64,000 bases of DNA from Anaerolineales bacterium. Lineage in GTDB: Bacteria; Chloroflexota; Anaerolineae; Anaerolineales; DRKV01. The stretch covers positions 3,693 to 67,692 of the forward strand of contig DAOUFY010000090.1 of the NCBI GenBank assembly GCA_034429745.1, in the 5' to 3' direction. Of this stretch, positions 1-29,847 are shown piece after piece; positions within the stretch are counted from its first letter, which is position 1; the number at the start of each line of letters is the position of its first letter. The translations under genes were made by a program, and so were the position numbers. The notes under the pieces are model-generated. The model was not told the DNA's origin. It saw only the letters and a program-made list of their open reading frames with translations, and did no database searches.

Positions 1-498
1 CGAGCGCGCTTGCTGCGGGAATATGGCTGGCGCGAGCGGTATATCAGTGAAATTACAGGTTGGAATAGCCGCTTGGATGAAATTCAGGCGGCTGTTTTGC
101 GCGTGAAATTAAAATATTTGGATGATGACAACGCTCGACGTGTGCACTTAGCTGAGATATATGCCCGCGAGCTGCAGGACTATCCTGACTTGCTGCCGAA
201 AACTCGAGAAGGTGCTTACCACGTGTTTCACCTTTATGTGATCCGTGCGCCTCGCCGCGATGAACTGCAAACTTTCTTGACTCAGAGAGGGATAGGCTGT
301 TTGGTGCATTATCCGCAGCCAATCCATCTGCAGCCGGCGTATCTAAATCGTCTCAAAGGGTCGGAGCTTTTACCGCAAACTGAAAGAGCAGCCCGCGAGG
401 TACTTTCCCTGCCAATGTACCCCGAATTGGAGCCTCAGTCTGTGCTGCAGGTTTGTGAGGCAGTCCGAGAGTTCTTAAGCGGGGTAGGGGTGAAGTGA
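1..498 (+). CDS. DegT/DnrJ/EryC1/StrS-family PLP-dependent sugar aminotransferase, C-terminal part (5' end lies outside the window)
   Basis: The frame is open from nt 1. The translation ...WNSRLDEIQAAVLRVKLKYLD...YHVFHLYVIRAP...LVHYPQPIHLQPAY...LSLPMYPEL matches the conserved C-terminal half of DegT-type aminotransferases. The Met at nt 10 is probably internal. Confidence 0.8.
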   Translation, partial: RARLLREYGWRERYISEITGWNSRLDEIQAAVLRVKLKYLDDDNARRVHLAEIYARELQDYPDLLPKTREGAYHVFHLYVIRAPRRDELQTFLTQRGIGCLVHYPQPIHLQPAYLNRLKGSELLPQTERAAREVLSLPMYPELEPQSVLQVCEAVREFLSGVGVK

Positions 499-805
499 TC
501 GCAATAAAACCATTTCCTCCTTTATCAAAAGTTGCAAAGAAATGTCTTCAAACGTTTGCCGAAGTGGATCTTAATTATTTGTTTTCATTGGGGCATTAGG
601 CTTTAGTTCTTATTGCTATCACTTAACGATTGCTTTCGATCAACAAAACGTTCTGCTCCAATGCATGGGCTGGAGTACAGGTCAGGTGGTTGGATTTTTT
701 GAATGCCATGTTGAGAGCAAGATAGTCTCATCGGTGGTGCAGGGATCATCCCTTGAATTTTCGGAATATTTATAATGATGTGTAACTAAAAAAGAGGTGA
801 ACCCA

Positions 806-1468
806 ATGAATAAGGAAAATAACCTTGAGGTTTCGGTGAATGTTTTTGTTCAAGCGCGGATGAGCTCTCAACGGTTTCCTGGTAAAGTGCTTGCACCATT
901 AAGAGGGAAACCAATTTTATTGCATGTACTGGAACGGATCATGCACGTGCTACCAAAGGAGAAAATTATCGTGCTGACCAGCGAACTTACCTCCGATGAT
1001 CCGCTTGCCTGCTATGCTGAATGGCTGGGGTTTAAGGTGTTTCGCGGTAATTTGAATGATGTTTTTTCACGTTTTAGAGCATGTTTGCAGCATTACCCGT
1101 GTGAATGGTTTTTTAGAATCAGTGCTGATAGCCCAGTGCTGGATGTTACTGTGATGAAACGCATGTTGAAGTATATACAAACACCTGCGTTTGATATTAT
1201 TACCAATGTATTTCCGCGTACTTATCCGCGGGGACAAAGTGCAGAGTTGATATGGGCATCCCGTTTTCTCCAAATAAACCCTAATCAGCTATCGGATGAA
1301 GAAAAAGAACATGTAACGAAAGTCTATTATCATCACCCACAGGATTTTCGTATTCTTAACCTTGAGGCAGAAAATCCGATAACAGATTATCCGCATTTAG
1401 CCATAGATACCATCGAAGACCTGCAATTTGTTGAGCAGTGGTTATGCTCTGAAGAGGCAAAAGTTTGA
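806..1468 (+). CDS. SpsF/FlmC-type cytidylyltransferase (CMP-sugar forming, acylneuraminate cytidylyltransferase superfamily)
   Basis: The N-terminal motif VFVQARMSSQRFPGKVL..L.GKPIL is typical of SpsF-like cytidylyltransferases. AGAGGTG precedes the ATG at 806, and the ORF track starts at a GTG at 797. Confidence 0.7.
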   Translation: MNKENNLEVSVNVFVQARMSSQRFPGKVLAPLRGKPILLHVLERIMHVLPKEKIIVLTSELTSDDPLACYAEWLGFKVFRGNLNDVFSRFRACLQHYPCEWFFRISADSPVLDVTVMKRMLKYIQTPAFDIITNVFPRTYPRGQSAELIWASRFLQINPNQLSDEEKEHVTKVYYHHPQDFRILNLEAENPITDYPHLAIDTIEDLQFVEQWLCSEEAKV

Positions 1469-2499
1469 GCAAGAGTGGTATTCATTCTCAGACCAAACAA
1501 GTTGGTGCTGCCGTCATTGGTTTAGGAGTGGGCGAGCAGCATGCCCGTATGCTAGCTAGCTTGCCTTCTTGCGGACTGTTGTGGCTGTTTGATATTGATC
1601 ACTTGAAAGTGGAACGAGCCTTAACGTCCATTGGACAAGGTAAAGCTGCAGCAAGCTACGAACAGATTCTCAATGATGAGCGGGTAAATTTGGTAGTGAT
1701 TGCCAGTTATGACGATGCTCATTATGAACAAACAGTTGCAGCTTTAGAAGCAGGAAAACATGTCTTTGTTGAGAAACCGCTTTGCCGCAGCATAACAGAA
1801 CTGCAAGTGATCAAAGATAAATGGTTGCAGCAGAAAGGCAAGGTTCAGCTTACCTCAAATTTGGTTTTGCGCGCTGCCCCTTTATATCAATGGTTGGAAA
1901 AACAACTCGTTAAAGGGAATCTGGGTGTACCTTATGCGTTGGATGGTGAGTACCTTTATGGCAGATTGGAAAAGATTACCCGAGGCTGGCGCAAGGATGT
2001 GGCGGAATATTCTGTGATGTTTGGGGGAGGAATTCATTTGGTGGATTTGATGCTTTGGCTGTTAAAGGACAGACCACAAACCGTGTTTGCTAGAGGCAAT
2101 CGGATATGCACAGAAGGAACGGAGTTTCGTTACCCCGATTTTATAACGTCAGTGATGACTTTTCCTAACGGTTGTATTAGCCGAATAACCGCAAATTTTG
2201 GTTGTGTGCATCGTCATCAGCACGTATTACGCATTTATGGTACGCAAGCTACATTTATGTATGATGATGCCGGCGCGCGCTGGCATTTTACTCGCGACGA
2301 AAATGTTTCTGCTAGCCCTATCACTGCTTCACCTTTGCCGGCACATAAGGGCGAGCTGCTCCCCATTTTTATAGAAGCTATTATTGACCAACAAGATTTG
2401 ACAACTCATACTCAGCAAATGTTTGATGCCATCAGTGTTTGCGCAGCTAGTGATGAAGCTGTACGAACTCAACGTGTTGTGGAGGTTAAATACGTATGA
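1465..2499 (+). CDS. Gfo/Idh/MocA-family NAD(P)-dependent sugar oxidoreductase
   Basis: There is an N-terminal Rossmann motif (VGAAVIGLGVGEQH) and an EKPL motif (HVFVEKPLCRS). The TTG start overlaps the upstream stop (TTGA). Confidence 0.75.
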   Translation: MSKSGIHSQTKQVGAAVIGLGVGEQHARMLASLPSCGLLWLFDIDHLKVERALTSIGQGKAAASYEQILNDERVNLVVIASYDDAHYEQTVAALEAGKHVFVEKPLCRSITELQVIKDKWLQQKGKVQLTSNLVLRAAPLYQWLEKQLVKGNLGVPYALDGEYLYGRLEKITRGWRKDVAEYSVMFGGGIHLVDLMLWLLKDRPQTVFARGNRICTEGTEFRYPDFITSVMTFPNGCISRITANFGCVHRHQHVLRIYGTQATFMYDDAGARWHFTRDENVSASPITASPLPAHKGELLPIFIEAIIDQQDLTTHTQQMFDAISVCAASDEAVRTQRVVEVKYV

Positions 2500-3668
2500 A
2501 CGAAACGCGCCATATCCCTTTTGGCAAGCCTTGGATTACTGATGAAGACAGGCAGGCGGTAATGGAAGTTCTCCAAGGGTCGATTCTGACCCATGGACCT
2601 CAAGGCAAGTTATTTGAGGAAGAGTTTGCAGTTTTCATTGAAGGCGAGAACCAAACCACTGAAGCCTATTGTGTAACGGTCAGTTCAGGAATGGCTGCCT
2701 TGCATATGGCTTATTGGCAGTTAGGGATAGGAACCGGCGATGAGGTGATCGTAACGGCACAAACGCACAATGCTACAGCCCATGCTATAGAGATATTGGG
2801 TGCAAAGCCGGTATTTATAGACTGTCGTCTGGATACTGGAAATATTGATGTACAGCAGATCGAACAAGCCATAACGCCGCGCACAAAAGCTATAAGTCTG
2901 GTTCACTTTATCGGCATACCTTGTGAGATGGATGGTATTCTTGATATAGCCCAACGGCATGGGCTCAAAGTCATTGAGGATTGTGCTATTGCGCTTGGTG
3001 CCCGCTTTCGCGGTGTACATGTTGGCTTGTTGGGGGATGCAGGATGCTTTTCCTTTTACCCTGTTAAGCATATTACCAGCGGAGAGGGCGGCATGTTCAT
3101 TACAAGGCACGTCAACCTTGCTCAGCGGGTGGCGCATGGGCGCGCCTTTGGTGTGGATCGGACGCATGCGGAGCGAGCCATACCTGGCTTTTACGATGTT
3201 ACTGCCGTGGGCTTGAATTACCGGATGAGTGAAATGCAGGCGGCGTTGGGCAGGCAGCAGCTTAAGCGCATTGATGAAATTCTTGCCCGGCGCAAAGCAA
3301 ACTTCAGTTTATTGAAAACTTTATTAAGTGAACTTGATGAAATCACTATTCTGGATTCGGTAACTGAGCAGCAGCAAAGCAGCCATTATTGCCTTAGTCT
3401 GCTATTGAAAGGCGACTTGGGAAAGAAACGCAATGAAATAGTCTTGGAACTCAATCGGGCAGGGGTTGGAACAAGCATTTACTATCCTCACCCTGTTCCA
3501 TTGCTCACTTACTATCGTCAGAAGTATGGTTATCGCGAACAAGATTTTCCAAATGCGCTGACAATAAGTGATACCTCAATTGCTTTACCGGTAGCGCCCC
3601 ACGTAAGCGAAGAGGATATTCGGTATATGGCTGCGCACTTGAAACAAATTATTTGGGAGGTGAAATAA
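2496..3668 (+). CDS. DegT/DnrJ/EryC1/StrS-family PLP-dependent sugar aminotransferase (PseC/LegC-like)
   Basis: This is a full-length 390-aa protein. It starts IPFGKPWITDEDRQAVMEVLQGSILTHGP and has FSFYPVKHITSGEGGM around the PLP lysine. It overlaps the upstream gene by ATGA. Confidence 0.85.
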   Translation: MNETRHIPFGKPWITDEDRQAVMEVLQGSILTHGPQGKLFEEEFAVFIEGENQTTEAYCVTVSSGMAALHMAYWQLGIGTGDEVIVTAQTHNATAHAIEILGAKPVFIDCRLDTGNIDVQQIEQAITPRTKAISLVHFIGIPCEMDGILDIAQRHGLKVIEDCAIALGARFRGVHVGLLGDAGCFSFYPVKHITSGEGGMFITRHVNLAQRVAHGRAFGVDRTHAERAIPGFYDVTAVGLNYRMSEMQAALGRQQLKRIDEILARRKANFSLLKTLLSELDEITILDSVTEQQQSSHYCLSLLLKGDLGKKRNEIVLELNRAGVGTSIYYPHPVPLLTYYRQKYGYREQDFPNALTISDTSIALPVAPHVSEEDIRYMAAHLKQIIWEVK

Positions 3669-4714
3669 TGGCTTATCCCATTGCTGGAAGGAGAATTGCG
3701 CTGATTGGTGGTGCAGGATTTATTGGACATCATTTGGCATTGGCGTTAGCGAAAGCCAAGGCTGAAGTACATGTTGTTGATGGCTTAGAAGTGAATAATT
3801 TTCTTGCTTTTGCCGCAACAACGAAAGATATTCCCAGCCGCGATTTGTATTTACGGATCATCAATCAGCGGCTGGATTTGCTCAAGCAGGCCGGAGTTCC
3901 GCTGCATGTGCAGGACGCGCGCGATTATCACATGCTGAGCAAAGTGTTGGGGCAAATACGCCCTCAAGTGATCGTTCATCTTGCTGCGGTTGCTCATGCT
4001 GGCCGGGCAAATAAAGATCCTTACAGCACCTTTGATCACAGTTTGCGCACTTTAGAAAATGCTTTAGATAATGCGCAAAATAATGTGGAGCACTTTGTTT
4101 ATTTTTCTTCCAGCATGGTATATGGAGACTTTTTAACTCCAGAAGTTGATGAGGAACATCCTCTTAACCCGATTGGGATCTATGGTGCGTTGAAAGTAGC
4201 CGGGGAAAAAATGGTTATTGCTTACCATCAGGTTTATGGTCTGCCTTATACCATTGTGCGTCCTTCGGCATTGTACGGTCCACGATGTGTTAGTCGTCGT
4301 GTTGGGCAGATCTTTATTGAAAGCGCTCTCGAGGGAAATACTCTGCGAGTAGATGGGGATGGCAATGAAAAGCTCGATTTTACTTATATTGATGACTTAG
4401 TCAGTGGAATATTATTAATTCTTGAAAAAGAGGAAGCTCGCAATCAGATTTTTAACCTCACTTATGGGCAATCGCGCAGTATCAATGAGTTGGTAGCTAT
4501 TATTCAACAGCATTTTCACGAATCTAAAGTTACTTATGTAGAAAGAGATCGGCTGATGCCCCATCGCGGTACATTAAGCATTGAAAAAGCGAAACGGTTG
4601 TTGGGTTATGCGCCGCAAAATCCAATTGAGGTTGGTTTTCCCAAGTATATACAGTGGTATAAGGAACTTGATCCGAGCGGCCGGTTTTGGATAGACATTA
4701 AAATCAATCAATAA
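3668..4714 (+). CDS. NAD-dependent epimerase/dehydratase (extended SDR)
   Basis: It has a GGAGFIGHHL Rossmann motif and YGALK (YxxxK). GGGAGGTG precedes the ATG at 3668, and the ORF track start at 3653 is probably too early. Confidence 0.8.
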   Translation: MAYPIAGRRIALIGGAGFIGHHLALALAKAKAEVHVVDGLEVNNFLAFAATTKDIPSRDLYLRIINQRLDLLKQAGVPLHVQDARDYHMLSKVLGQIRPQVIVHLAAVAHAGRANKDPYSTFDHSLRTLENALDNAQNNVEHFVYFSSSMVYGDFLTPEVDEEHPLNPIGIYGALKVAGEKMVIAYHQVYGLPYTIVRPSALYGPRCVSRRVGQIFIESALEGNTLRVDGDGNEKLDFTYIDDLVSGILLILEKEEARNQIFNLTYGQSRSINELVAIIQQHFHESKVTYVERDRLMPHRGTLSIEKAKRLLGYAPQNPIEVGFPKYIQWYKELDPSGRFWIDIKINQ

Positions 4715-5469: not shown

Positions 5470-5489
5470 GTTAGAGTTTTGGAGAATAG

Positions 5490-6500: not shown

Positions 6501-6506
6501 TAACAG

Positions 6507-11107: not shown

Positions 11108-11452
11108 ATGAAAGTTGTGTGTAATGATCCGCCGCGTCGTTTTGTCGTTGGAAGAAATGCTTCTATCGAAATGAAGGATTGTGGGCAGATTCTGCTTGAA
11201 GCTGACGAACAAGTTACCTTTATTACCGCTCTAGGGGCTGAATACGATGTGGCGCGCAAGGAATGGGGGTTTTATGCCACGCCGTCAGTGAATGGCAGGT
11301 TAAAAGCTATGGGTTTTAAAACTGCCTTGGTAAAGAACCCACATCATCGCTATTATGTGTTATTGGTAGAGCAGGATAAAATTGAACAGTTTTTAGCCTA
11401 TCTTCAACAGGAGGAAAGTGAAATAGTTGAGTGGCTTGATGAACGATCATGA
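11108..11452 (+). CDS. Hypothetical small protein (114 aa), co-transcribed with the amidotransferases
   Basis: The ORF sits 3 nt after the upstream stop and overlaps the next gene. I recognise no family. Confidence 0.5.
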   Translation: MKVVCNDPPRRFVVGRNASIEMKDCGQILLEADEQVTFITALGAEYDVARKEWGFYATPSVNGRLKAMGFKTALVKNPHHRYYVLLVEQDKIEQFLAYLQQEESEIVEWLDERS

Positions 11453-18639: not shown

Positions 18640-18643
18640 TGCG

Positions 18644-22437: not shown

Positions 22438-25400
22438 TGAAAAAGTATTATTGTACTTATTTCGATCGCAATTATGTGTATAAAGCATTAGCGCTGATCG
22501 ATTCGCTTAGACAACATGAAGAAGACGATTTTGAGTTTTTTGCGATATGTATGGATGAAATTAGCCGTTTGATTTTGGAAAAATTGGCTCTTCCTCATGT
22601 TATTCCTATCCCATTCCACATGATTGAAGAACGAGATGATGCTTTACTTGCAACAAAGAAAGATCGCACGCTCGTTGAGTATTATTGGACAACTACGCCA
22701 ATTAACATTCTATGGCTGCTAGAAAATTACCCTCACATAGATGTATTAACGTATCTTGATGCAGATTTGTATTTTTATTCTTCGCCTGCACCAATATTTG
22801 AGGAATTAGGCGATCAATCCATTCTAATCCACGAGCACAGGTTTTCTCCTAGCATGGCTTATTTAGCCGCAAATAATGGGCGGTACAATGTGGGTTTGCT
22901 TTGTTTTCGCAATGATGAGGTCGGTCTGAAGGCTTTACGCTGGTGGCGCGAGAGAACCATTGAATGGTGCTACTTGCGCTGGGAAGATGGCAAAATGGGT
23001 GACCAAATGTATTTGAATGACTGGCAAACCCGCTTTGAACGAGTGGTTGTATTGCAGCATATTGGTGCTGGCGTAGCTCCTTGGAATCACGATCAATACC
23101 ATTTGAAGGTTGATGGACAACAAAATATTTGGGTAAATGATGTTCCGTTGGTTTTTTTTCATTTTCACTCGTTGACCTTTGTCAGTCCTGGGCTTGTTGT
23201 TGTTGCTCATCCTCATTACCCCATGAACGAAGAAGTATTGCGTTATTGTTATTTCCCTTATATCAAGAAAATATTATCTTTTATCCCTTGTGTGCAGGAG
23301 TTAATACCTGATTTTAACTATGGACTATATACTCAAGATATGTCCTTAAAGGACCGCACATTTTTTGCGCGTTCGCATCTGGCATTAAAGCTTAAACAGG
23401 CCGGCTGTCTGATTTCGCCCTTTTCAATTGATGATGAATGGGATGTTTATCTTGCTCCTCAAGAGCAACAAGTCTTAGATAAGCTTCCTACAGACTCCAT
23501 CCAGAAAGCCCAATCTCAGGAAGATTTGATGCTCTGGCACCCTCAACGAGTGGTGGTTACCCCTAATGATTTACTATTAACCCTGCGAGAACGCGAGATT
23601 CGTTTCTCTATTCGAGTGCTTTATGTGGTAGGTGCTTTTCTGTTTGAAGAACGCGAACTGCTTTTTGAACTATTCCCAAATTTAGAAAAAGTGGTTCTCT
23701 TTGAACCTGTACCAGAAGTATATCAGCAATTACTAATCATTACCAAAAACGACCCGCGAATTGTGGTTTTTCCTTATGCGATCGGTGATACAGATGAACG
23801 GCGGGATTTTTATATCACCAATAATTATCAATCCAGTTCTATTTTGCCATTGGGCAAGCATAGGGAACTGTTCCCACAAGTTGAACATACTCGTACAGTA
23901 ACTGTAGAATGTTACCGTTTAGATAGTGTTATACAGCTTCATCACCTGCCATTGCCAGATATGCTTTTTCTGGATGTTCAAGGAGCTGAATATCAAGTGT
24001 TGGCAGCGCTATCGTCAACATTGCGTCAGCGAATACGTTTGATTTATACTGAAGTGAGTACAGAACCTCTCTATCAAGGTTCAAAACCTTTAGCGGAAGT
24101 TACAGAACTGTTACGCTCCGATTTTCTATTTTTAGGGTATGCTCCAACCCGTCAAGAATTACCTGTCCATGGCAATGCTGTTTATGTTAATCACCGATGT
24201 TTGGAAGAAGTAAAAAGTAAACCGTTGGCTATGGGAGGTGAGGCTAATTATCGTGTCTCTGTTATTGTTTCTGCATATAAATCGGAAGCATTCATGCGCG
24301 AATGTTTGACAGATTTAGTCAACCAAACCATTGCAAATCAATCGGAAATTATTATTGTGGATGCTAATTCACCAGAAAATGAGCGCGCTATTGTAGAGGA
24401 GTTCCAACGTCAATACAAGCAGATCACCTATATCCGTACTGGAGAGAGGATTGGGGTATATGCGGCTTGGAATTTGGCAATAAAGATAGCAAAAGGAAAA
24501 TATATCACGCCATTTAGCACAAATGACCGCTTGCGGAAAGATGCGCATGAGATTTTAGCAAAAGCTTTAGATGAAAACCCACAGGTGATGTTAGTTTATG
24601 GCGATACTTATATGACTGCCATTCCCCATGAAACCTTTGAAAAACACACTCGTATCAGTTCCATGATTTGGCCGCCCTATTCATATGAAGATTTGCTCAT
24701 GAACAACCGTGTGGGACCGCACCCCATGTGGCGTAAAAGTGTACATCAGGAAGTAGGATACTTTGATGAAACTTTTTATGCAATAGGTGATCAAGAATTT
24801 TGGCTGCGGATAGGGGAGCACTTTCCCTTGCTGCATATTCCTGTGTTCACCGGCTTATATTGGACAACGCCGGAAGCTCTTTCGAATAGAGAGGAATATG
24901 CAAAATCAGAATTTATCAAAGCTCGCCAACCATATCAAGCGCGGTATCGAAGTGAGCGCTTAGATCGTTGGCGCAGCGCAGAGGAGAAATTATCTCAAGC
25001 AGCAGCAGCCATTGAACGAAATCATTTGTTAAGAGCTGAAGAGTTGTTGAAAGAAGCAGCAAGTATTGCGCCGGATAATTCGAATGTATTATCTGCGGTA
25101 GGACGTTGGTATTTGGCAATTCAAAAGCCTGATGAAGCAATTTCTTGGTTGAATAAAGCTATTCAGTACGGTCCAGCACGCTGGAATGATCATTTACATC
25201 TGATTGAAGCTCTGATAGCTGTTGGAAATCTTCAAGAAGCTGCCAAAGAAGTCAGTTGGTTAAGAACTTACATACCAATATTTGATGAAGTCAAAAAATT
25301 TGAACATCTTTTATTGAGTATGGGAGTTGAAGTTATGCCAGATCGTGAAATGCCTTATGGAAAACTTGAATCTCAAAGTGAAAAAGAAGAACTTCAAGAA

Positions 25401-28400
25401 AGAGCAAAACAGACATTGCAAAGATTGTTAGAAGCGGAGGATATTCTCCAGGCGTTGGATGAGCACGAGGAGCTGCTGGATGAAGAACTATTGGCTTTAG
25501 TGCGGCGAGATGCAGAAACTGCGCGTCTATCAGGAGAGGGTGATTTAGCCGAAGGATTGGAAGCTCTTGCCGAGACAATTGAAGAACGGCTTAAAGCAAA
25601 GCCTCAAGTTGAGGTGCAAACGCAGCCGAATCAGGGACAAATGCAACCAAAACAGAGAGAGCAGGCGGCAGAGACCCTGCGTCGGCTTTTGGATGCGGAG
25701 GATATTCTGCAGGCGTTGGATGAGCACGAGGAGCTGCTGGATGAGGAACTTCTGGCTTTAGTGCGGCGGGATGCAGAAACTGCGCGTCTATCAGGAGAGG
25801 ATGATTTAGCCGAAGGATTGGAAGCTCTTGCCGAGACAATTGAAGAGCGGCTTAAAGAAAAACTGCAAGTCAAAGTGCAAACGCGGGCAGAAAGGAAGGA
25901 ACCAGCAGCAGAGACACTGCGTCGGCTTTTAGAAGCGGAGGATATTCTGCAGGCGTTGGATGAGTATGAGGAGCTGCTGGATGAGGAACTGCTGGCTTTA
26001 GTGCGGCGGGATGCAGAAGCGGCGCGTCAAGCCGGAGAGGATGATTTAGCCGAAGGATTGGAAGCTTTAGCTGAGACAATTGAAGAACGGTTAAAGAATA
26101 AAATTCCTTCCCAATCAGTATATAACAAATCTTCTTCAACAGGGCAAAACTCACAAATAAAGCATCAACAAAGACAAGCCGGGGAATACATTCCAGCACA
26201 AAACGGCATCCCCGCGGGGTATGTAAAGCAGCGAGCTGTTATTAAGGATGCACTCGTTGATATTGTTATACCGATTTACGGGCAGGGGGAATTATTAAGA
26301 CTTTGTGTAGAGTCGGTGCTTGCAACTACGAAGGATGTGCATTTGATATTAGTTGATGATTGCTCACCTTTGGGAGCTATTGAGGCGATCTTCAATTTGT
26401 GGGAAGGACATCCTCAAATAACCCTTGCCCGAACTGAAGAAAATCAAGGGTTTATCGGCACAACGTGCTTGGGCGCGACATTGGGCAAGGCACCTTATAT
26501 CCTTTTCCTTAACTCAGATACTGAAGCGATCCAAAAAGGTTGGCTTGAAGCATTGCTGCCGCAGGAAGACGACATTGCAATAAGTGGAGCAAAATTGCTT
26601 TACCCTCCTTATACTTCCCCCTACAAAGCTTTTAGAATACAACATGCAGGTGTTGCCCGTAAGGATGATCTGATGCCCTATCATATATTCCATGGTTTAG
26701 AAAGAGATCATCCTAGCGCTAATGTAGCGAGAGATGTTAATGCTGTTACGGGGGCTTGTTTTTTAGTCAGACGATCAATATGGGAAAAACTACATGGTTG
26801 GGATAGAAACTTTGGACGAGGCGTTTATGAAGATGTAGATTTTTGTTGGCAGGTACGTGAACTCGGTTACCGTGTGCGTTATGAACCCAAAGCAGAATTG
26901 TTCCATGCTTCAAGTGCAAGCGAATTCATTTTTAACGAACATTTGCTTTACAATAAAAAGGAAGAGAATCTAAACTATTTACAAAGCAAATGGAAGTACT
27001 TGGAAAGAGATGAGGAGCTCTTTTGGGAAAAGGAAGTGATTGAGCGCTGGAAGAAAGGTAGGAAAGCGCTGAAGAGGGGGGAAGTTTTTAAAGCCCGCGG
27101 TGAATATAAAGAAGCATTCAAAGAAATAAGAAACGCTTATAGAATTGCAGCGGATGATCCTCAGATAGCTTTTGCTTATGGAACGTTGCTGCTAATCAGA
27201 GAAAAATTTTTAGAAGCTGTGGAGATATTTGAAAAAGTTAAGGAGTCACTTCCTTTATCTTCTGAGACTCATTTTAGTTTGTTGGCTGCATATCTTGGGA
27301 CGAAAAATTTATCAAAAGCAGAGGAAGAATATTTGCTAGTTGCTGAACTCTTCCCATATCATCCTCAGATAGAGGAAATAAAAGAAAAGATTGAAGAGTT
27401 GAAAAAAAGTGCTGGGTATTCCTCTGAGAAAGGTAGTATTGTAGGTGGGCATACGAAAGAAGCAGTTGGCATTGTGCTTAAGCAAGCAAAACCTGGTTCA
27501 TATAAAGTGGATATTATTATTCCCATTTATGGACAGGTTAAGTTAACTTATGATTGTCTGATTTCTGTGTTGGAAACAACACAAGATGTTCATGTTATTA
27601 TGGTGGATGATTGTTCGCCAGGCAAAGAAATTGAAGATCTTTTTGCTCGGATAGATACTCCAAATGTTACTCTTGCGCGTACCATAAAAAATATGGGTTT
27701 CTTGGGTACAAGTAAGTTTGGAGCTAGTTTAGGCAAATCACCTTTTATTCTTCACTTGAATTCCGATATTGTTGCTATCCAAAGCGGCTGGCTGGAGCAC
27801 CTGTTACCTAAATCCGAAGATGTGGCAGTGTGCGGTGCAAAGTTGTTGTACCCCCCCAAATCGCCGCGCTTGCTAGCAAATCGCATTCAGCATGCTGGTG
27901 TATGTATGCGCGATGAGGTTGATTGTTTGCGAATTTTTCACCCCTACCAAGGATATGAGGCAGATTTTCCGGCGGCTAATGTACCACGTTATGTTAACGC
28001 AGTTACAGGGGGGTGCTTGTTGACTCGCCGCACTGTTTGGGAAGAATTGGGAGGCTGGGATGAACACTTGGGGCGCGGCGTATTTGAAGATGTGGATTAC
28101 TGCTGGCGGGTGCGCAAGCGCGGTTACCGTATTGCATATGTACCGCAAGCGGTTCTTTACCATTACGAAAGTCAAAGCGTTTCAGAAAATGGTGAGCATT
28201 CTTTGCATAAGTACAGTACACAAAATTTGAATTACCTCTTATCTCGATATGGCAGAGAACAATGTGACGAGGAGCTTTATTTTGAAAGCGAATTGATAAA
28301 GCGCTGGATGAAAGGAAGACACCTTGCTGCTGATGCTAGAAAGGCTTTTCTAAAAGGAGATTCGAAAACAGCCCATTCCTTATTCACCCAAGCCTTAAAG

Positions 28401-28667
28401 TTGGCTGCCGATGATGTGGTTACGCTTGTTCGATACAACGAGTTTTTGCATGGAGAAAAACAATATTTGACTTTAATTGAAAGCATTCCAAAACTATTAG
28501 CGCTATCTCCATTGGAATGGCAGACGCGTGTACAATGGATTGACACGTTGATGAAATTGAACAAACTCGAGCAGGCTGCTGAAGAGTTAGAATTGTTATG
28601 GGAGGTATTTCCAAAATCACCGCTCTTGGTTGGGTTGAAAAAAGAGTTGGAAAAAGCAATGCAATGA
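22437..28667 (+). CDS. Giant 2076-aa multi-domain glycan-assembly protein: N-terminal GT-A-like domain, FkbM-type methyltransferase, GT2-TPR, triple acidic repeat, GT2-TPR, GT2-TPR
   Basis: The N-terminal domain has YCTYFDRNY...YLDADLYFY. The FkbM-like segment spans about nt 23610-24210 (VVLFEPVPEVYQQL...FPYAIGD...FLDVQGAEYQVL). GT2 #1 starts at about 24249 (VSVIVSAYKSE...IIIVDANSPENE). GT2 #2 starts at 26256 (VDIVIPIYGQ...LILVDDCSP). GT2 #3 starts at 27508 (VDIIIPIYGQ...VIMVDDCSP). TPR-like helical repeats follow each GT2 domain. Confidence 0.85.
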   Translation: MKKYYCTYFDRNYVYKALALIDSLRQHEEDDFEFFAICMDEISRLILEKLALPHVIPIPFHMIEERDDALLATKKDRTLVEYYWTTTPINILWLLENYPHIDVLTYLDADLYFYSSPAPIFEELGDQSILIHEHRFSPSMAYLAANNGRYNVGLLCFRNDEVGLKALRWWRERTIEWCYLRWEDGKMGDQMYLNDWQTRFERVVVLQHIGAGVAPWNHDQYHLKVDGQQNIWVNDVPLVFFHFHSLTFVSPGLVVVAHPHYPMNEEVLRYCYFPYIKKILSFIPCVQELIPDFNYGLYTQDMSLKDRTFFARSHLALKLKQAGCLISPFSIDDEWDVYLAPQEQQVLDKLPTDSIQKAQSQEDLMLWHPQRVVVTPNDLLLTLREREIRFSIRVLYVVGAFLFEERELLFELFPNLEKVVLFEPVPEVYQQLLIITKNDPRIVVFPYAIGDTDERRDFYITNNYQSSSILPLGKHRELFPQVEHTRTVTVECYRLDSVIQLHHLPLPDMLFLDVQGAEYQVLAALSSTLRQRIRLIYTEVSTEPLYQGSKPLAEVTELLRSDFLFLGYAPTRQELPVHGNAVYVNHRCLEEVKSKPLAMGGEANYRVSVIVSAYKSEAFMRECLTDLVNQTIANQSEIIIVDANSPENERAIVEEFQRQYKQITYIRTGERIGVYAAWNLAIKIAKGKYITPFSTNDRLRKDAHEILAKALDENPQVMLVYGDTYMTAIPHETFEKHTRISSMIWPPYSYEDLLMNNRVGPHPMWRKSVHQEVGYFDETFYAIGDQEFWLRIGEHFPLLHIPVFTGLYWTTPEALSNREEYAKSEFIKARQPYQARYRSERLDRWRSAEEKLSQAAAAIERNHLLRAEELLKEAASIAPDNSNVLSAVGRWYLAIQKPDEAISWLNKAIQYGPARWNDHLHLIEALIAVGNLQEAAKEVSWLRTYIPIFDEVKKFEHLLLSMGVEVMPDREMPYGKLESQSEKEELQERAKQTLQRLLEAEDILQALDEHEELLDEELLALVRRDAETARLSGEGDLAEGLEALAETIEERLKAKPQVEVQTQPNQGQMQPKQREQAAETLRRLLDAEDILQALDEHEELLDEELLALVRRDAETARLSGEDDLAEGLEALAETIEERLKEKLQVKVQTRAERKEPAAETLRRLLEAEDILQALDEYEELLDEELLALVRRDAEAARQAGEDDLAEGLEALAETIEERLKNKIPSQSVYNKSSSTGQNSQIKHQQRQAGEYIPAQNGIPAGYVKQRAVIKDALVDIVIPIYGQGELLRLCVESVLATTKDVHLILVDDCSPLGAIEAIFNLWEGHPQITLARTEENQGFIGTTCLGATLGKAPYILFLNSDTEAIQKGWLEALLPQEDDIAISGAKLLYPPYTSPYKAFRIQHAGVARKDDLMPYHIFHGLERDHPSANVARDVNAVTGACFLVRRSIWEKLHGWDRNFGRGVYEDVDFCWQVRELGYRVRYEPKAELFHASSASEFIFNEHLLYNKKEENLNYLQSKWKYLERDEELFWEKEVIERWKKGRKALKRGEVFKARGEYKEAFKEIRNAYRIAADDPQIAFAYGTLLLIREKFLEAVEIFEKVKESLPLSSETHFSLLAAYLGTKNLSKAEEEYLLVAELFPYHPQIEEIKEKIEELKKSAGYSSEKGSIVGGHTKEAVGIVLKQAKPGSYKVDIIIPIYGQVKLTYDCLISVLETTQDVHVIMVDDCSPGKEIEDLFARIDTPNVTLARTIKNMGFLGTSKFGASLGKSPFILHLNSDIVAIQSGWLEHLLPKSEDVAVCGAKLLYPPKSPRLLANRIQHAGVCMRDEVDCLRIFHPYQGYEADFPAANVPRYVNAVTGGCLLTRRTVWEELGGWDEHLGRGVFEDVDYCWRVRKRGYRIAYVPQAVLYHYESQSVSENGEHSLHKYSTQNLNYLLSRYGREQCDEELYFESELIKRWMKGRHLAADARKAFLKGDSKTAHSLFTQALKLAADDVVTLVRYNEFLHGEKQYLTLIESIPKLLALSPLEWQTRVQWIDTLMKLNKLEQAAEELELLWEVFPKSPLLVGLKKELEKAMQ
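25410..26096 (+). repeat. Three near-identical in-frame tandem repeats (about 189-nt core; unit starts about 25410, 25668, 25908) inside the giant CDS
   Basis: The core peptide (A)ETLRRLLEAEDILQALDEHEELLDEELLALVRRDAETARLSGEDDLAEGLEALAETIEERLK occurs three times with only a few substitutions. Long stretches of the DNA are identical. The linkers are 70 and 51 nt. Confidence 0.95.
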
Positions 28668-28689
28668 AATTTTTGGATCAATTAGTATT

Positions 28690-29847
28690 ATGCCAACTCC
28701 TACGCTTTCTTTGTGCATGATTGTTAAGAATGAAGAGGCAAATCTCAAGCGCTGTCTTGATTCAGTGATTGGGGTAGTGGATGAATTGATCATCGTTGAC
28801 ACTGGCTCTACTGACCGCACGCCGGAAATTGCTCGGGCTTATCAAGCCAAGCTTTATCATCACGAATGGAATAATGATTTTTCTGAAGCGCGCAACGTAA
28901 GCTTAGAAAAAGCAACAGGCGAGTGGATTTTAGTGTTGGATGGAGATGAAATGCTAACTCCCGAATCACGTCAGCATCTCAAACCAATTTTGGCAACTAC
29001 AGCGGCGGAGGGAGTATTGTTTACGGTGCGCAACTTTAACCCGCCGGATGCTTTGGCAGAATATAACGATTCTCCGCAAATTCGCGCCTTCCGGAATCGT
29101 CCGCAGTATCGTTATCAGCAAAGAGTACATAATCAGATTGGAATAGCTATTGCAGCCCATGGGGGGGTAATAGCAAATCATATACAGGAGCTGATGATCT
29201 GGCACTATGGGTATTTGCAACGCACCGTTCAAGGCAATCAGGATCGGCTTGAGCGTAGTCTGCGGATGCTCGAAGCCGCTGTGAACGAGGATCCGCAGAA
29301 TATTTACTTAAATGCCAAACTAGCTGTAATTTATTTCCACTTAGGAGAGCATTCGCTGGCATATACCTATGCCTATCGAGTGCTGACTGAGATGGACCAC
29401 AGTCAACTAACGATTGAAAATCTACGCGATATTCTGCGGATTGTTTCCAATATTTCTATTCAACGCGGTCATTATGATTTAGCTGTCCAGACTGCTCAAG
29501 CTTGTTTGGATCTATCTCGAGATGATACTGATGCGCTGCTCTCGGCGCTGGATTTGTTGGGAGTGGCTTATGGGGCACAGGCAGAGCTTTTTATAAAACG
29601 CGCCGTTGCCATGGAGCATCAATTGGTAAAGATGGAAGAGGCGCACGCCAAAGCAGCCCTCAACGAGCAGCGAATGGAGTGGCTAACGCAAGGAAAAGCA
29701 GCAGCCACTCATTCCGAAAATGCTTTTGAAACTTTGCTTGCGCACCCTCAACTGCGCATCTCTCATAAAGAACGGGTGCAACATTTTCTAGATCAATCGC
29801 GTACTCTTCTTCACTATATAGAGACGCGGATGGCTTGGCAGCCGTGA
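28690..29847 (+). CDS. GT2-family glycosyltransferase with C-terminal TPR-like domain
   Basis: LSLCMIVKNEEANLKRCLDSV...IIVDTGSTDRT...ARN...VLDGDE is the classic GT2 (SpsA-like) N-terminus. The helical repeat region follows (YLNAKLAVIYFHLGEHSLAYTYAYRVL). Confidence 0.8.
   Translation: MPTPTLSLCMIVKNEEANLKRCLDSVIGVVDELIIVDTGSTDRTPEIARAYQAKLYHHEWNNDFSEARNVSLEKATGEWILVLDGDEMLTPESRQHLKPILATTAAEGVLFTVRNFNPPDALAEYNDSPQIRAFRNRPQYRYQQRVHNQIGIAIAAHGGVIANHIQELMIWHYGYLQRTVQGNQDRLERSLRMLEAAVNEDPQNIYLNAKLAVIYFHLGEHSLAYTYAYRVLTEMDHSQLTIENLRDILRIVSNISIQRGHYDLAVQTAQACLDLSRDDTDALLSALDLLGVAYGAQAELFIKRAVAMEHQLVKMEEAHAKAALNEQRMEWLTQGKAAATHSENAFETLLAHPQLRISHKERVQHFLDQSRTLLHYIETRMAWQP

What the first reader, a model, noticed from the sequence alone, without database searches (positions are those of the whole stretch)
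1..29847. A ~30-kb single-strand nonulosonic-acid glycan island 4.5 kb upstream of the flagellin genes, a candidate flagellin glycosylation system
Seen in the sequence:
- About 22 ORFs lie on the plus strand with minimal spacing.
- Start/stop overlaps are frequent: TTGA at 1465, ATGA at 2496, 9986 and 21418, and TAATG at 4714 and 22437.
- The only break is one 0.49-kb gap at 16.36-16.85 kb.

The core set (two DegT aminotransferases, two extended SDRs, a GNAT, a NeuB-family synthase and an SpsF-type cytidylyltransferase) is the established toolkit for CMP-pseudaminic or CMP-legionaminic-type sugars.

The tailoring load is unusually heavy: formyltransferase, CE4 deacetylase, AsnB-like and PP-loop amidotransferases, an acyl-AMP-ligase-ACP-acyltransferase fusion, a B12 radical SAM enzyme, three methyltransferase domains and at least seven glycosyltransferase domains.

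GT2-TPR proteins and nonulosonate clusters next to flagellins are known hallmarks of flagellin O-glycosylation in Campylobacter, Clostridia, Listeria (GmaR) and Geobacillus. Here both flagellins have Ser/Thr-rich cores.

No Maf/DUF115 transferase and no PseG/NeuC-type hydrolase is recognisable, so the transfer chemistry may be non-canonical. The island is cut by the window edge at its 5' end.
Basis: partly seen in the sequence, partly recalled or inferred. Interest (0 to 1): 0.78.

Follow-up and report, generated by a model that had tools for sequence, protein, structure and literature searches.

The report
Maf-less nonulosonic-acid protein glycosylation island beside flagellins
This is a real 30-kb operon-like block of soluble sugar-making and sugar-transferring enzymes, most likely used to decorate the neighbouring flagellins with a heavily modified sialic-acid-like glycan, and it appears to use a KpsC/KpsS-like transferase in place of the usual Maf enzyme.

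Summary
There are 20 plus-strand genes (19 complete, one cut) with the stated start/stop overlaps, and nearly every domain call is confirmed by Pfam/NCBIfam.

Corrections:
- There is a second gap of about 0.3 kb at 499-805.
- Only two classical SAM-methyltransferase domains are found, plus the B12-radical-SAM enzyme.
- Only 615 bp of the island lies outside the window. Upstream are infA-like, rpsU and an MTTB gene.

The flagellin reading is strengthened but not proven:
- No island protein has a transmembrane segment, exporter or priming transferase.
- The last gene's GT2 domain is most similar to Listeria GmaR, a flagellin O-glycosyltransferase (E 2.8e-33).
- In an unrelated genome, a homologue of the unannotated 748-aa protein sits directly after two flagellin genes and next to a NeuB cluster.

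That 748-aa protein is a Cys4 + GT-B + GT-A enzyme. It is distantly related to KpsC/KpsS (PF05159) and carries the CMP-binding HP motif. Its family is large (2,349 clusters at E<=1e-30) and usually lies next to nonulosonate genes. It is the best candidate for the "missing" nonulosonate transferase.

The sugar itself (Pse-like or Leg-like) cannot be assigned. No PseB/PglF-type dehydratase, LegX or PseG/NeuC is present. Verdict: a new variant of a known kind.

The parts
1..498 (+). 3' part of the first island gene, a DegT aminotransferase (370 aa in full; starts 615 nt before the window)
   Evidence: PF01041 E 1e-36. The full gene is seen in L001 3696-4808, preceded by an infA-like gene, rpsU, a terminator-like hairpin and a TATAAT box. 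PseC model 248 bits, below the 423.5 cutoff.
797..1468 (+). CMP-sugar synthetase (CTP_transf_3, SpsF/NeuA/KdsB-like); the gene caller starts it at 806
   Evidence: PF02348 E 2.5e-18. Only weak KdsB-family NCBIfam hits. Gene-caller start.
1465..2499 (+). Gfo/Idh/MocA NAD-dependent sugar oxidoreductase, translationally coupled to the next DegT
   Evidence: PF01408/PF22725. Weak hit to the archaeal UDP-GlcNAc 3-dehydrogenase model, 8e-15. Only generic inositol-dehydrogenase-like PDB hits. ATGA overlap at 2496.
2496..3668 (+). DegT aminotransferase 2 (PseC/LegC-like); part of a module conserved in other phyla
   Evidence: PF01041 E 6.9e-109. PseC 301 bits, below the 423.5 cutoff. 51% identical homologues lie next to SDR1/GNAT/NeuB homologues in L007 and L011.
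3653..4714 (+). Extended SDR 1 (RmlB/LegB/Pal-like), putative NDP-HexNAc 4,6-dehydratase; the gene caller starts it at 3668
   Evidence: PF01370 E 1.8e-45. LegB model 106 bits, below the 475 cutoff. PDB: UDP-glucose 4-epimerase, then Pal 3.5e-27. 58% identical homologues in L007 and L011.
4714..5469 (+). GNAT N-acetyltransferase with an N-terminal extension (WecD-like)
   Evidence: PF00583 E 9.5e-15. WecD model 2e-24, below cutoff.
5490..6500 (+). NeuB-family nonulosonic acid synthase (NeuB + SAF)
   Evidence: PF03102 E 1.6e-69. NeuB_NnaB 291 bits and PseI 231 bits, both below cutoff. PDB: PseI 1.6e-43, NeuB 1.1e-40, SpsE 8e-34.
6507..7217 (+). Sugar N-formyltransferase-like protein
   Evidence: PF00551 E 8.7e-16.
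7241..8152 (+). CE4 (polysaccharide deacetylase family) N-deacetylase
   Evidence: PF01522 E 1.1e-16.
8160..9989 (+). AsnB-type glutamine amidotransferase, translationally coupled to WbuX
   Evidence: TIGR01536 394.8 bits, above the 267 cutoff. ATGA overlap at 9986. AsnB + WbuX + 748-aa homologues co-occur in L006 and L007.
9986..11104 (+). WbuX-family PP-loop N-acetyl-sugar amidotransferase (acetamidino formation)
   Evidence: TIGR03573 343 bits, above the 203 cutoff.
11108..11452 (+). 114-aa protein of unknown function, conserved next to WbuX
   Evidence: No Pfam or NCBIfam hit. A 48% identical homologue sits directly after WbuX in L024.
11427..14102 (+). Fatty-acyl-AMP ligase + carrier protein + hexapeptide acyltransferase fusion (putative N-acylation of an amino sugar)
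   Evidence: PF00501 3e-45, PF00550 2.3e-4, PF00132 4.8e-10. FAAL models.
14114..16360 (+). 748-aa two-domain glycosyltransferase. Residues 1-~520: Cys4 + KpsC/KpsS-like GT-B with HERG, R-x-H-P and S-T-x-G-x-E motifs. Residues 540-745: GT-A (GT2-like) domain. Candidate CMP-nonulosonate transferase.
   Evidence: No Pfam hit of its own. 5/10 and 4/31 family members hit PF05159. Profile against PDB: KpsC 2.8e-6. AF2 pLDDT 86.8. Foldseek shows a GT-B fold, with best target-normalised TM-scores (TMt) for KpsC 0.51 and WbbB 0.46. C-terminal domain has a GT-A fold, query-normalised TM-score (TMq) 0.60. Neighbourhoods.
16361..16848 (.). 488-bp non-coding gap. In the closest related island this position is an in-frame TPR + methyltransferase linker that fuses the two flanking glycosyltransferases.
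   Evidence: No ORF longer than 44 aa. L024 9995-16288 is one 2097-aa ORF covering both homologues. A weak sigma-70-like site lies at 16680-16708.
16849..18639 (+). CgeB-type GT-B glycosyltransferase (Glyco_trans_1_2) fused to a SAM methyltransferase
   Evidence: PF13524 5.3e-30 and PF08241 3.1e-10. 27% identity (E 1e-11) to the 624-aa Glyco_trans_1_2 protein beside fliW in L012. 58% identity to the fused L024 protein.
18590..20593 (+). B12-binding radical SAM enzyme (probable C-methyltransferase)
   Evidence: PF02310 6.7e-15 and PF04055 1.7e-12. B12+rSAM domains are fused to 748-aa-family members elsewhere.
20603..21421 (+). Small GT2/GT92-like glycosyltransferase
   Evidence: PF13704 1.4e-16 and PF01697 6.6e-16.
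21418..22437 (+). Extended SDR 2 (GalE/UXS/RmlB-like)
   Evidence: PF01370 3.6e-49. PDB: UDP-glucose 4-epimerase 1.6e-39, UDP-GlcA decarboxylase 1e-37. 76% identical in L024.
22437..28667 (+). 2076-aa multi-domain protein: GT8-like (weak) N-terminus, FkbM methyltransferase, GT2, TPR, three ~87-aa acidic helical repeats, then GT2-TPR twice
   Evidence: Pfam. PDB: the first GT2 resembles SpsA/chondroitin synthase, and the later GT2s weakly resemble polypeptide GalNAc-transferases. DNA tandem repeat 25434-26098, period 261. 1989-aa variants occur in other assemblies.
28690..29847 (+). GmaR/SunS-like GT2-TPR protein glycosyltransferase; the last island gene and the one nearest the flagellins
   Evidence: PDB: GmaR GT domain E 2.8e-33, 35% identity over 189 aa and 54% over the first 90 aa; SunS 2.7e-18. 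PF00535 3.2e-26, TPR_19 2.9e-4.
34271..36402 (+). Two flagellin genes (34397-35299 and 35527-36402), each preceded by a sigma-28/SigD-like promoter match; presumed acceptors
   Evidence: Flagellin_N/C. TAAA-N-CCGATAA-type matches at 34271-34297 and 35443-35469, with none in the island. Terminator at 35324-35354. Central S+T 34% and 21%.

Best explanation
The island is a self-contained, entirely cytoplasmic protein O-glycosylation system. Its most likely substrates are the two flagellins 4.5 kb downstream.

1. Sugar synthesis (inferred).
- A conserved module turns an NDP-HexNAc into a CMP-activated 5,7-diamino nonulosonic acid. The module is SDR1, DegT2, GNAT, NeuB-family synthase and CTP_transf_3 cytidylyltransferase.
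- The nucleotide-removal step has no recognisable gene here and must be encoded elsewhere or done by an unrecognised enzyme.

2. Tailoring (inferred from family chemistry).
- WbuX, fed by the coupled AsnB-type amidotransferase, converts an N-acetyl group into an acetamidino group.
- The CE4 deacetylase frees an amine for re-acylation, either by the formyltransferase or by the acyl-AMP-ligase/carrier/hexapeptide acyltransferase.
- The B12-radical-SAM enzyme and the SAM methyltransferases add methyl groups.
- Gfo/Idh/MocA + DegT1 and SDR2 probably make a second amino or deoxy sugar.

3. Transfer (inferred).
- The GmaR-like GT2-TPR protein, and/or the TPR-bearing GT2 modules of the 2076-aa protein, bind the flagellin and start O-linked glycans on Ser/Thr of its central region.
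- The remaining GT domains extend the glycan.
- The 748-aa KpsC/KpsS-like GT-B domain uses the CMP-nonulosonate to add the acidic sugar. It thus replaces Maf.

What is shown is the gene content, the folds, the motifs and the comparative neighbourhoods. No step is shown biochemically.
For: Enzyme families.

Soluble, export-free system:
- No predicted transmembrane segment was found in any of the 20 proteins.
- There is no Wzx/Wzy/ABC exporter and no polyprenyl-phosphate priming transferase.

Links to protein glycosylation:
- The GT2-TPR gene's best solved relative is the Listeria flagellin glycosyltransferase GmaR (E 2.8e-33). The next best is the peptide glycosyltransferase SunS.
- The GT1 domain is CgeB-type. 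CgeB is a putative protein O-glycosyltransferase (PMC13577073).

The 748-aa protein:
- It has invariant Cys4, HERG, RxHP and STxGxE motifs.
- Its family profile hits KpsC at 2.8e-6 with the HP motif aligned.
- Family members hit PF05159.
- The model shows a GT-B fold closest by TM-score to KpsC and WbbB, plus a GT-A domain.
- PF05159 members Gtr59, KpsS1 and KpsS2 are the predicted NulO transferases of Acinetobacter K loci and lie next to NulO modules (PMC4487303).

Neighbourhoods:
- At least 13 independent loci place family members beside NeuB, CTP_transf_3 or WbuX genes.
- L012/L013 place one directly after fliW-csrA-flagellin-flagellin, next to a NeuB cluster, with a Glyco_trans_1_2 protein on the other side.

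Fusions tie the 748-aa gene to its downstream neighbours:
- Glyco_trans_1_2, TPR, methyltransferase and B12-rSAM domains are fused to family members elsewhere.
- The two window genes are one 2097-aa ORF in L024.

The same gene order from the island to thrS occurs on 6-7 independent contigs.
Against: - No flagellar sigma-28-type promoter was found in or before the island, although both flagellin genes have one.
- Four unrelated genes separate the island from the flagellins: DUF1810, a C26 peptidase and an opposite-strand ABC transporter.
- Most 748-aa-family loci show no flagellin within 10 kb, and one is in a cyanobacterium (Limnothrix). The family is therefore NulO-linked, not flagellin-specific.
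- The window member itself has no Pfam hit, and the KpsC relationship is remote.
- The NulO pathway is incomplete as seen. There is no PseB/PglF-type dehydratase, no LegX and no PseG/NeuC, and no enzyme reaches an equivalog cutoff.
- The second flagellin is only moderately Ser/Thr-rich.
Confidence: 0.6

Rival explanations
1. The same soluble machinery glycosylates another protein or surface layer, such as a spore crust or exosporium protein, an S-layer protein or pilin. The flagellin neighbourhood would then be coincidental.
For: [quoted passage not shown]
- There is no flagellar promoter in the island, and unrelated genes lie between it and the flagellins.
- 748-aa-family members occur in a cyanobacterium (Limnothrix) and mostly without nearby flagellins.
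Against: - The GmaR-like GT2-TPR is the gene closest to the flagellins.
- An independent lineage has the family member inside a flagellin locus.
- No sporulation, S-layer or pilin gene is seen anywhere in the 64-kb window.
Confidence: 0.2
2. The island makes a lipid-linked surface polysaccharide (capsule, O-antigen-like polymer or cell-wall glycopolymer). The priming and export genes would be encoded elsewhere.
For: - PF05159 relatives (KpsC/KpsS, Gtr59, KpsS1) act in capsule synthesis (PMC4487303).
- The large number of glycosyltransferase domains would suit a repeat-unit polymer.
Against: - There is no transmembrane protein, no initiating phosphoglycosyl transferase, no flippase, polymerase or ABC exporter in 30 kb.
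- Several glycosyltransferases carry TPR protein-binding modules, and their nearest relatives modify proteins or peptides (GmaR, SunS, CgeB).
Confidence: 0.1
3. The 748-aa GT-B protein is not a transferase. It would be the missing nucleotide-sugar hydrolase or 2-epimerase (PseG/LegG/NeuC equivalent) of the pathway.
For: - The lowest Foldseek E-values for the full model are to UDP-GlcNAc 2-epimerases, including hydrolysing NeuC (2.6e-8 to 1e-6).
- The island otherwise lacks this step.
Against: - Sequence profiles hit KpsC (2.8e-6 and 7e-4). Epimerases are not significant, with E of 0.38 or higher.
- Target-normalised TM-scores (TMt) are higher for KpsC and WbbB (0.46-0.51) than for the epimerases (about 0.33).
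- The HP motif is aligned with that of KpsC.
- Family members coexist with separate PseG-like genes in L008 and L029.
- Family members are fused to TPR, glycosyltransferase and sugar-methyltransferase domains, and the window protein carries its own GT-A domain.
Confidence: 0.1

Closest known systems
Maf-type flagellar glycosylation islands (Campylobacter, Helicobacter, Aeromonas, Clostridium, Geobacillus)
   Same: A NulO biosynthesis cluster (NeuB-family synthase, cytidylyltransferase, DegT, WbuX/PseA/PtmG-type amidotransferase, methyltransferases) lies close to flagellin, fliD and fliS genes. Glycosylation of flagellin is cytoplasmic (PMC13317340, PMC4065374).
   Different: No Maf (PF01973) is present. 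The canonical PseB/PseG or LegX/LegG enzymes are absent. There are many more glycosyltransferase domains and a heavier tailoring set.
Listeria monocytogenes GmaR (GT2-TPR flagellin O-GlcNAc transferase) and the GT2-TPR flagellin glycosyltransferases predicted in Clostridium
   Same: The last island gene has a GT2 domain 35% identical to the GmaR GT domain (E 2.8e-33), with the DxD region conserved, followed by TPR-like repeats. GT2+TPR is used as the criterion for flagellin glycosyltransferases in PMC13317340.
   Different: The protein is shorter (385 aa). No MogR-type regulatory context is seen. It is embedded in a NulO island rather than acting alone.
PF05159 Capsule_synth enzymes: KpsC/KpsS beta-Kdo transferases and the predicted NulO transferases Gtr59, KpsS1 and KpsS2 of Acinetobacter baumannii K loci
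   Same: Both have a GT-B fold, an HP motif and an S-x-G-x-E segment aligned with KpsC. Both are placed next to a NulO synthesis module (PMC4487303).
   Different: The relationship is very remote, and the window protein gets no Pfam hit of its own. It has an extra Cys4 cluster and a fused GT-A domain. The context is soluble, with no export genes, and in two lineages flagellin-linked rather than a capsule locus.
Bacillus subtilis sps/cge spore-crust legionaminic acid system
   Same: Both have SpsE-like synthase, SpsF-like cytidylyltransferase, DegT and GNAT enzymes. Both have a CgeB-type glycosyltransferase that modifies a protein inside the producing cell (PMC7439481, PMC13577073).
   Different: No SpsM/PglF-type dehydratase and no SpsG is present. 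The island is next to flagellins rather than under sporulation control as far as can be seen. The tailoring is far heavier.
Caulobacter/Brevundimonas FlmG (TPR + GT-B flagellin Pse/Leg transferase)
   Same: Both follow a Maf-independent logic in which a TPR module binds flagellin and a GT-B domain uses the CMP-NulO (PMC7591256; 10.1101/2022.03.25.485807). Relatives of the 748-aa protein carry TPR modules.
   Different: In the window, neither GT-B protein carries a TPR domain; the TPRs sit on the GT2 proteins. Homology to FlmG could not be tested because no FlmG sequence was available.

Membership tests
Canonical CMP-pseudaminic acid pathway (PseB-C-H-G-I-F) | PseB: Polysacc_synt_2-type inverting UDP-GlcNAc 4,6-dehydratase/5-epimerase | tested here: not met
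   Both SDRs are Epimerase/RmlB-type. Polysacc_synt_2 appears only as a marginal secondary hit (3.9e-7 and 7.9e-6), and the PseB model is not among the NCBIfam hits.
Canonical CMP-pseudaminic acid pathway (PseB-C-H-G-I-F) | PseG: UDP-sugar hydrolase | tested here: not met
   No TIGR03590 hit in any island protein. The same model does detect PseG-like genes in related loci L008 and L029.
Canonical CMP-pseudaminic acid pathway (PseB-C-H-G-I-F) | PseI synthase and PseC aminotransferase at equivalog level | tested here: inconclusive
   PseI 230.7 bits (cutoff 340), while NeuB_NnaB scores higher at 291 bits (cutoff 400). PseC 301 and 248 bits (cutoff 423.5). The best PDB match of the synthase is nevertheless PseI.
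Canonical CMP-legionaminic acid pathway (LegX/PtmE, LegB-C-H-G-I-F) | LegX/PtmE: CBS + nucleotidyltransferase that makes GDP-GlcNAc, the proposed marker of Leg clusters | tested here: not met
   No CBS/NTP_transferase protein is found in the island. The marker is defined in 10.1101/2022.03.25.485807.
Canonical CMP-legionaminic acid pathway (LegX/PtmE, LegB-C-H-G-I-F) | LegG/NeuC: hydrolysing 2-epimerase (Epimerase_2) | tested here: not met
   No PF02350 hit is found in the island. One of ten 748-aa-family members has a non-significant hit at 0.079.
Maf-type flagellin NulO glycosylation | Maf / MAF_flag10 (PF01973, DUF115) transferase | tested here: not met
   No hit in any ORF of 100 aa or more in 1-40 kb.
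GmaR-type GT2-TPR flagellin glycosyltransferases | N-terminal GT2 catalytic domain homologous to GmaR, with a DxD motif | tested here: met
   E 2.8e-33; 35% identity over 189 aa. The window's 'LDGDE' aligns with GmaR's 'IDADE'.
GmaR-type GT2-TPR flagellin glycosyltransferases | C-terminal TPR domain, and glycosylation of flagellin Ser/Thr | tested here: inconclusive
   TPR_19 E 2.9e-4 and PEP_TPR/MamA-like weak hits. Activity on flagellin is not testable in silico.
PF05159 Capsule_synth (KpsC/KpsS/Gtr59/KpsS1) CMP-ulosonic acid transferases | A match to the Pfam model by the protein itself | tested here: not met
   The window protein gets 0 families at E<=1. 5/10 and 4/31 relatives match, with best E 1.3e-8.
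PF05159 Capsule_synth (KpsC/KpsS/Gtr59/KpsS1) CMP-ulosonic acid transferases | GT-B fold with the HP motif and C-terminal S-x-G-x-E nucleotide-binding segment aligned to KpsC | tested here: met
   The family profile hits KpsC 6mgd at 2.8e-6 with 'RhHP' aligned to 'KPHP' and 'StvGlEAl' aligned to 'SlfGfEAl'. H329/P330 are invariant. Foldseek target-normalised TM-score (TMt): KpsC 0.51, WbbB 0.46.
PF05159 Capsule_synth (KpsC/KpsS/Gtr59/KpsS1) CMP-ulosonic acid transferases | Gene adjacent to a nonulosonic or octulosonic acid synthesis module | tested here: met
   This holds in the window and in at least 12 other loci.
FlmG-type flagellin NulO transferases | Homology of a GT-B domain to FlmG, with a TPR flagellin-binding domain on the same protein | not tested
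Neither window GT-B protein contains TPRs, although relatives do.

The most novel reading that the evidence does not exclude
The 748-aa protein represents a third class of nonulosonic-acid protein glycosyltransferases, independent of Maf and FlmG. Its architecture is Cys4 + KpsC-like GT-B + GT-A, and relatives often carry fused TPR, methyltransferase, CgeB-type GT or B12-radical-SAM modules. Under this reading it sialylates flagellin, or the glycan on flagellin, in the cytoplasm. The family is large (thousands of clusters), has no Pfam or NCBIfam model, and would explain Maf-less flagellar glycosylation islands across several phyla.
Probability: 0.3. Interest if true: 0.75.

Novelty: new variant of a known kind. 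Interest (0 to 1): 0.55.

Why it matters
Enzymes that transfer pseudaminic or legionaminic-type sugars are poorly known. Maf and FlmG are the only experimentally supported flagellin classes, and the KpsS/Gtr59-type enzymes of capsules are still only predictions.

This island gives a concrete, testable candidate for how Maf-less bacteria attach such sugars. It defines conserved motifs to mutate: Cys4, HERG, RxHP and the D-E of the GT-A domain. It also shows by gene fusion which partners work together: the CgeB-type glycosyltransferase, methyltransferases and the B12-radical-SAM enzyme.

The tailoring set predicts a nonulosonate with unusual N-acyl, amidino and C-methyl decoration. That is of interest for glycan chemistry and for flagellin immune recognition.

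If flagellin turns out not to be the target, the island is still a compact example of soluble, export-free protein glycosylation with NulO sugars.

Tried and rejected
1. The 748-aa protein as the missing PseG/NeuC-type enzyme. This is disfavoured:
- Profile hits go to KpsC, not to epimerases.
- PseG-like genes coexist with family members.
- Family members are fused to TPR, GT and methyltransferase domains.

2. A flagellar sigma-28/SigD promoter in or upstream of the island. None was found, only the ones before the two flagellin genes. No regulatory link can be claimed.

3. A decayed coding remnant in the 488-bp gap. tblastn with the L024 linker found nothing at E 1e-3, and there is no ORF longer than 44 aa.

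4. Exporters or membrane anchors in the island. None were found by Pfam or by a hydropathy scan.

5. Assigning the sugar as Pse or Leg. The signals conflict: NCBIfam favours NeuB/LegI-type and the PDB search favours PseI. No marker enzyme is present, so this is left open.

6. Identifying the organism.
- The source genome was not among the GTDB representatives scanned.
- Cluster look-ups carry no taxon names.
- The only hints are a T-box leader on thrS, an upstream MTTB gene (in L001) and a URO-D-type gene in the window, and about 44% GC. These point to an anaerobic Bacillota-like organism.

7. Testing the relationship of the CgeB-type glycosyltransferase to FlmG. No FlmG sequence was available, and literature searches for PF13524/CgeB with flagellin found nothing.

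8. Compositional evidence for horizontal acquisition. The island's GC (0.41-0.47) is not distinct from the rest of the window.

9. The first word-indexed homologue search suggested the 748-aa family is rare, with 11 hits. The exhaustive profile search showed that this was an artefact of the index.

Full report
**Observation**

The region 1-29847 carries 20 plus-strand ORFs: 19 complete, and one cut by the window start. The stated overlaps were verified base by base:
- TTGA at 1465.
- ATGA at 2496, 9986 and 21418.
- TAATG at 4714 and 22437.

The 488-bp gap at 16361-16848 is real and holds no ORF longer than 44 aa. GC content (0.41-0.47) does not differ from the rest of the window.

**Gene content**

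Pfam and NCBIfam confirm nearly every domain call. In gene order:
- DegT (partial).
- CTP_transf_3 cytidylyltransferase.
- Gfo/Idh/MocA oxidoreductase.
- DegT.
- Extended SDR.
- WecD-like GNAT.
- NeuB+SAF synthase.
- Formyltransferase.
- CE4 deacetylase.
- AsnB-type amidotransferase (above the TIGR01536 cutoff).
- WbuX amidotransferase (above the TIGR03573 cutoff).
- A 114-aa unknown protein.
- Acyl-AMP ligase + carrier + hexapeptide acyltransferase.
- A 748-aa protein with no hit.
- Glyco_trans_1_2 + methyltransferase.
- B12-radical SAM.
- GT2/GT92.
- Extended SDR.
- A 2076-aa protein with FkbM methyltransferase, three GT2 domains and TPRs.
- GT2-TPR.

Two SAM-methyltransferase domains were found, not three.

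Downstream lie DUF1810, a C26 peptidase and an ABC transporter on the opposite strand. Then come two flagellins (34397-35299 and 35527-36402), fliD, flaG and fliS.

**Boundaries**

A contig carrying the identical DegT2 protein shows that only the first 615 nt of the first DegT gene are missing from the window (L001). Upstream of it lie an infA-like gene, rpsU and an MTTB gene. A terminator-like hairpin and a TATAAT box sit just before the DegT gene.

No PseB or PseG is therefore hiding upstream. The same gene order, from the island to thrS, is present on 6-7 independent contigs up to 79 kb long. The arrangement is not an assembly artefact.

**Which sugar**

The NulO call is sound at family level, from the NeuB-family synthase and the CTP_transf_3 enzyme. 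The pathway is not canonical, however.

- No enzyme reaches a Pse or Leg equivalog cutoff:

| Model | Score (bits) | Cutoff (bits) |
|---|---|---|
| PseI | 231 | 340 |
| NeuB_NnaB | 291 | 400 |
| PseC | 301 and 248 | 423.5 |
| LegB | 106 and 132 | 475 |

- There is no Polysacc_synt_2-type dehydratase.
- There is no LegX/PtmE, the marker of Leg clusters proposed in 10.1101/2022.03.25.485807.
- There is no PseG/LegG/NeuC.
- The best solved relative of the synthase is PseI (1.6e-43), closely followed by NeuB and SpsE.

Pse-type versus Leg-type stereochemistry therefore cannot be assigned.

The module SDR1-DegT2-GNAT-NeuB(-cytidylyltransferase) is conserved at 38-63% identity in a Bdellovibrionota genome and in unrelated metagenome contigs. 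It is evidently a working unit.

**The 748-aa ORF**

This protein has no Pfam, NCBIfam or direct PDB sequence match.

Conserved motifs. Alignment with homologues shows these invariant positions:
- C40, C47, C59 and C62.
- An HERG motif at 195-198.
- R327-x-H329-P330.
- S383-T384-x-G-x-E388.

Relationship to KpsC/KpsS:
- The family profile matches the beta-Kdo transferase KpsC at E 2.8e-6, with the HP motif and the S-x-G-x-E-A segment aligned. It also matches WbbB weakly.
- A GT-B-only profile again ranks KpsC first, and epimerases are not significant.
- Five of ten relatives, and four of thirty-one, hit PF05159 Capsule_synth.

Structure:
- An AlphaFold model has pLDDT 86.8 and pTM 0.86. It shows a GT-B fold.
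- The lowest Foldseek E-values go to UDP-GlcNAc 2-epimerases and GT1 enzymes.
- The best target-normalised TM-scores go to KpsC (0.50-0.51) and WbbB (0.46).
- Residues 540-745 form a GT-A (GT2-like) domain, modelled at pLDDT 90.6 with a query-normalised TM-score of 0.60 to SpsA and other GT2 enzymes. A conserved D-E sits at the DxD position.

Literature:
- HP motifs are hallmarks of CMP-sugar-using bacterial sialyltransferases (PMC5420450).
- PF05159 members Gtr59, KpsS1 and KpsS2 are the predicted acinetaminic and pseudaminic acid transferases of Acinetobacter capsule loci. They always lie next to the NulO module (PMC4487303).

**Family size and neighbourhoods**

An exhaustive profile search finds 2,349 cluster representatives at E<=1e-30 and 6,162 at E<=1e-10. 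The family is large, and the protein itself matches no Pfam or NCBIfam model.

In the loci inspected (L004-L030 plus two places without DNA), at least 13 distinct places put a member beside NeuB, CTP_transf_3 or WbuX genes.

Two of these loci also contain a separate PseG-like gene. That argues against the family being the missing hydrolase.

In L012/L013 the homologue is extended by a C-terminal TPR-like stretch and a methyltransferase-like domain (seen in alignment with P0003 and P0005). Its setting is as follows:
- It follows fliW-csrA-flagellin-flagellin directly and precedes a NeuB cluster.
- A Glyco_trans_1_2 protein lies on the other side.
- Those flagellins are only 25-29% identical to the window's, so this is an independent lineage.
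- They share the short length and the Ser/Thr-rich centre.

Other loci, including one in the cyanobacterium Limnothrix, show no flagellin within 10 kb. The family is therefore NulO-linked rather than flagellin-specific.

**Fusions**

Long family members are fused to:
- Methyltransf_24 (20 of 31).
- Glyco_trans_1_2 (6).
- TPR (6).
- GT41 (3).
- B12-binding + radical SAM (2).
- TylF, sulfotransferase and other glycosyltransferase domains.

These are the same functions that lie just downstream in the window.

In the closest syntenic island (L024), the homologues of the 748-aa protein (38% identity) and of the CgeB-type GT/methyltransferase (58% identity) are one 2097-aa ORF, joined by a TPR + methyltransferase linker. 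The window's 488-bp gap is exactly at that junction. It is thus a split site between two proteins that work together, not a boundary between unrelated operons.

**Evidence for a protein, and specifically a flagellin, target**

- A hydropathy scan finds no convincing transmembrane segment in any island protein. There is no flippase, polymerase, ABC exporter or priming phosphoglycosyl transferase. This fits cytoplasmic protein glycosylation and argues against a surface polysaccharide.
- The last gene's GT2 domain is most similar to the Listeria flagellin glycosyltransferase GmaR. The match has E 2.8e-33, 35% identity over 189 residues and 54% over the first 90. The next best is the peptide S-glycosyltransferase SunS.
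- The Glyco_trans_1_2 domain is of the CgeB type, a putative protein O-glycosyltransferase of the spore crust (PMC13577073).
- The later GT2 domains of the giant protein weakly resemble polypeptide GalNAc-transferases and are each followed by TPRs.
- TPR modules bind flagellin in both Maf-1 and FlmG (10.1101/2023.12.03.569772; PMC7591256).

Against this:
- Sigma-28-type promoter matches precede both flagellin genes, but none occurs in the island.
- Unrelated genes separate the island from the flagellins.

**Proposed mechanism (inferred)**

1. The core module makes a CMP-5,7-diamino-NulO. The nucleotide-removal step is unassigned.
2. WbuX with AsnB forms an acetamidino group.
3. CE4 frees an amine, which is re-acylated by the formyltransferase or by the acyl-AMP-ligase/carrier/acyltransferase.
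4. The radical-SAM and SAM methyltransferases add methyl groups.
5. Gfo/Idh/MocA + DegT1 and SDR2 supply a second modified sugar.
6. The GmaR-like and TPR-bearing GT2 modules start and extend O-glycans on flagellin.
7. The KpsC-like GT-B adds the NulO.

**Verdict**

This is a genuine Maf-less NulO protein-glycosylation island, and flagellin is the most likely target (about 0.6). It is a new variant of a known kind. The most interesting element is the uncharacterised KpsC-like GT-B/GT-A family.

Noticed in passing
window 25434-26098 (inside the 2076-aa gene): A 261-bp DNA tandem repeat (2.6 copies, 86% matches) encodes three ~87-aa acidic helical repeats between the first GT2-TPR and the later GT2 modules. 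Other assemblies carry 1989-aa and 1996-aa versions of the same protein. The 1989-aa form is exactly one repeat unit (87 aa) shorter, which suggests copy-number polymorphism of a spacer.
   Followed up: partly
L024 9995-16288 (metagenome contig Ga0208901_1000008): One 2097-aa ORF fuses a 748-aa-type GT-B/GT-A, a TPR, a Methyltransf_24-like domain, a second TPR, a CgeB-type GT, a Methyltransf_11 domain and a further methyltransferase. It lies in an island syntenic with the window (WbuX 45%, 114-aa protein 48%, SDR2 76%, giant N-terminus 52%).
   Followed up: yes
window 11108-11452: A 114-aa protein without any family match sits directly after WbuX, both here and in L024 (48% identity). It may be an accessory subunit of the amidotransferase step.
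   Followed up: partly
window 40808-41130: A tRNA-Val(GAC) gene is immediately followed by a T-box leader (107 bits) in front of a threonyl-tRNA synthetase gene (41166-42962). T-box control hints at a Bacillota-type host.
   Followed up: no
window 30734-31468: The C26 peptidase / class-I glutamine amidotransferase-like gene just downstream of the island has a 27% identical homologue inside another 748-aa-family cluster (L015 5747-6385). It may belong functionally to the glycan system rather than being a bystander.
   Followed up: no
window 39186-40187 and 46618-47802: A CARDB-domain protein overlaps the end of fliS, and a protein with two N_BRCA1_IG Ig-like domains lies further downstream. Both are unusual companions of a late flagellar gene cluster.
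   Followed up: no
window 56576-57715 (minus strand) and L001 1230-2666 (minus strand): A URO-D-family (MtaA/MtbA-like) gene lies in the window and an MTTB trimethylamine-methyltransferase-family gene lies just upstream of the island. This suggests a methylotrophic anaerobe. A hemerythrin gene, an MCP with a PilJ domain and a PAS histidine kinase are also present.
   Followed up: no
window 14114-16360 versus cluster members P0001 and P0162: In another assembly the 748-aa gene is called as a 630-aa and a 71-aa fragment on one contig. This is either a frameshifted allele or a sequencing error.
   Followed up: no
L028 874-3167 (TARA metagenome scaffold): A distant 748-aa-family member (23% identity) lies directly next to a GmaR/GT2-TPR-like gene (28% identity to the window's GT2-TPR). 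This is a second case of these two transferase types being neighbours.
   Followed up: no
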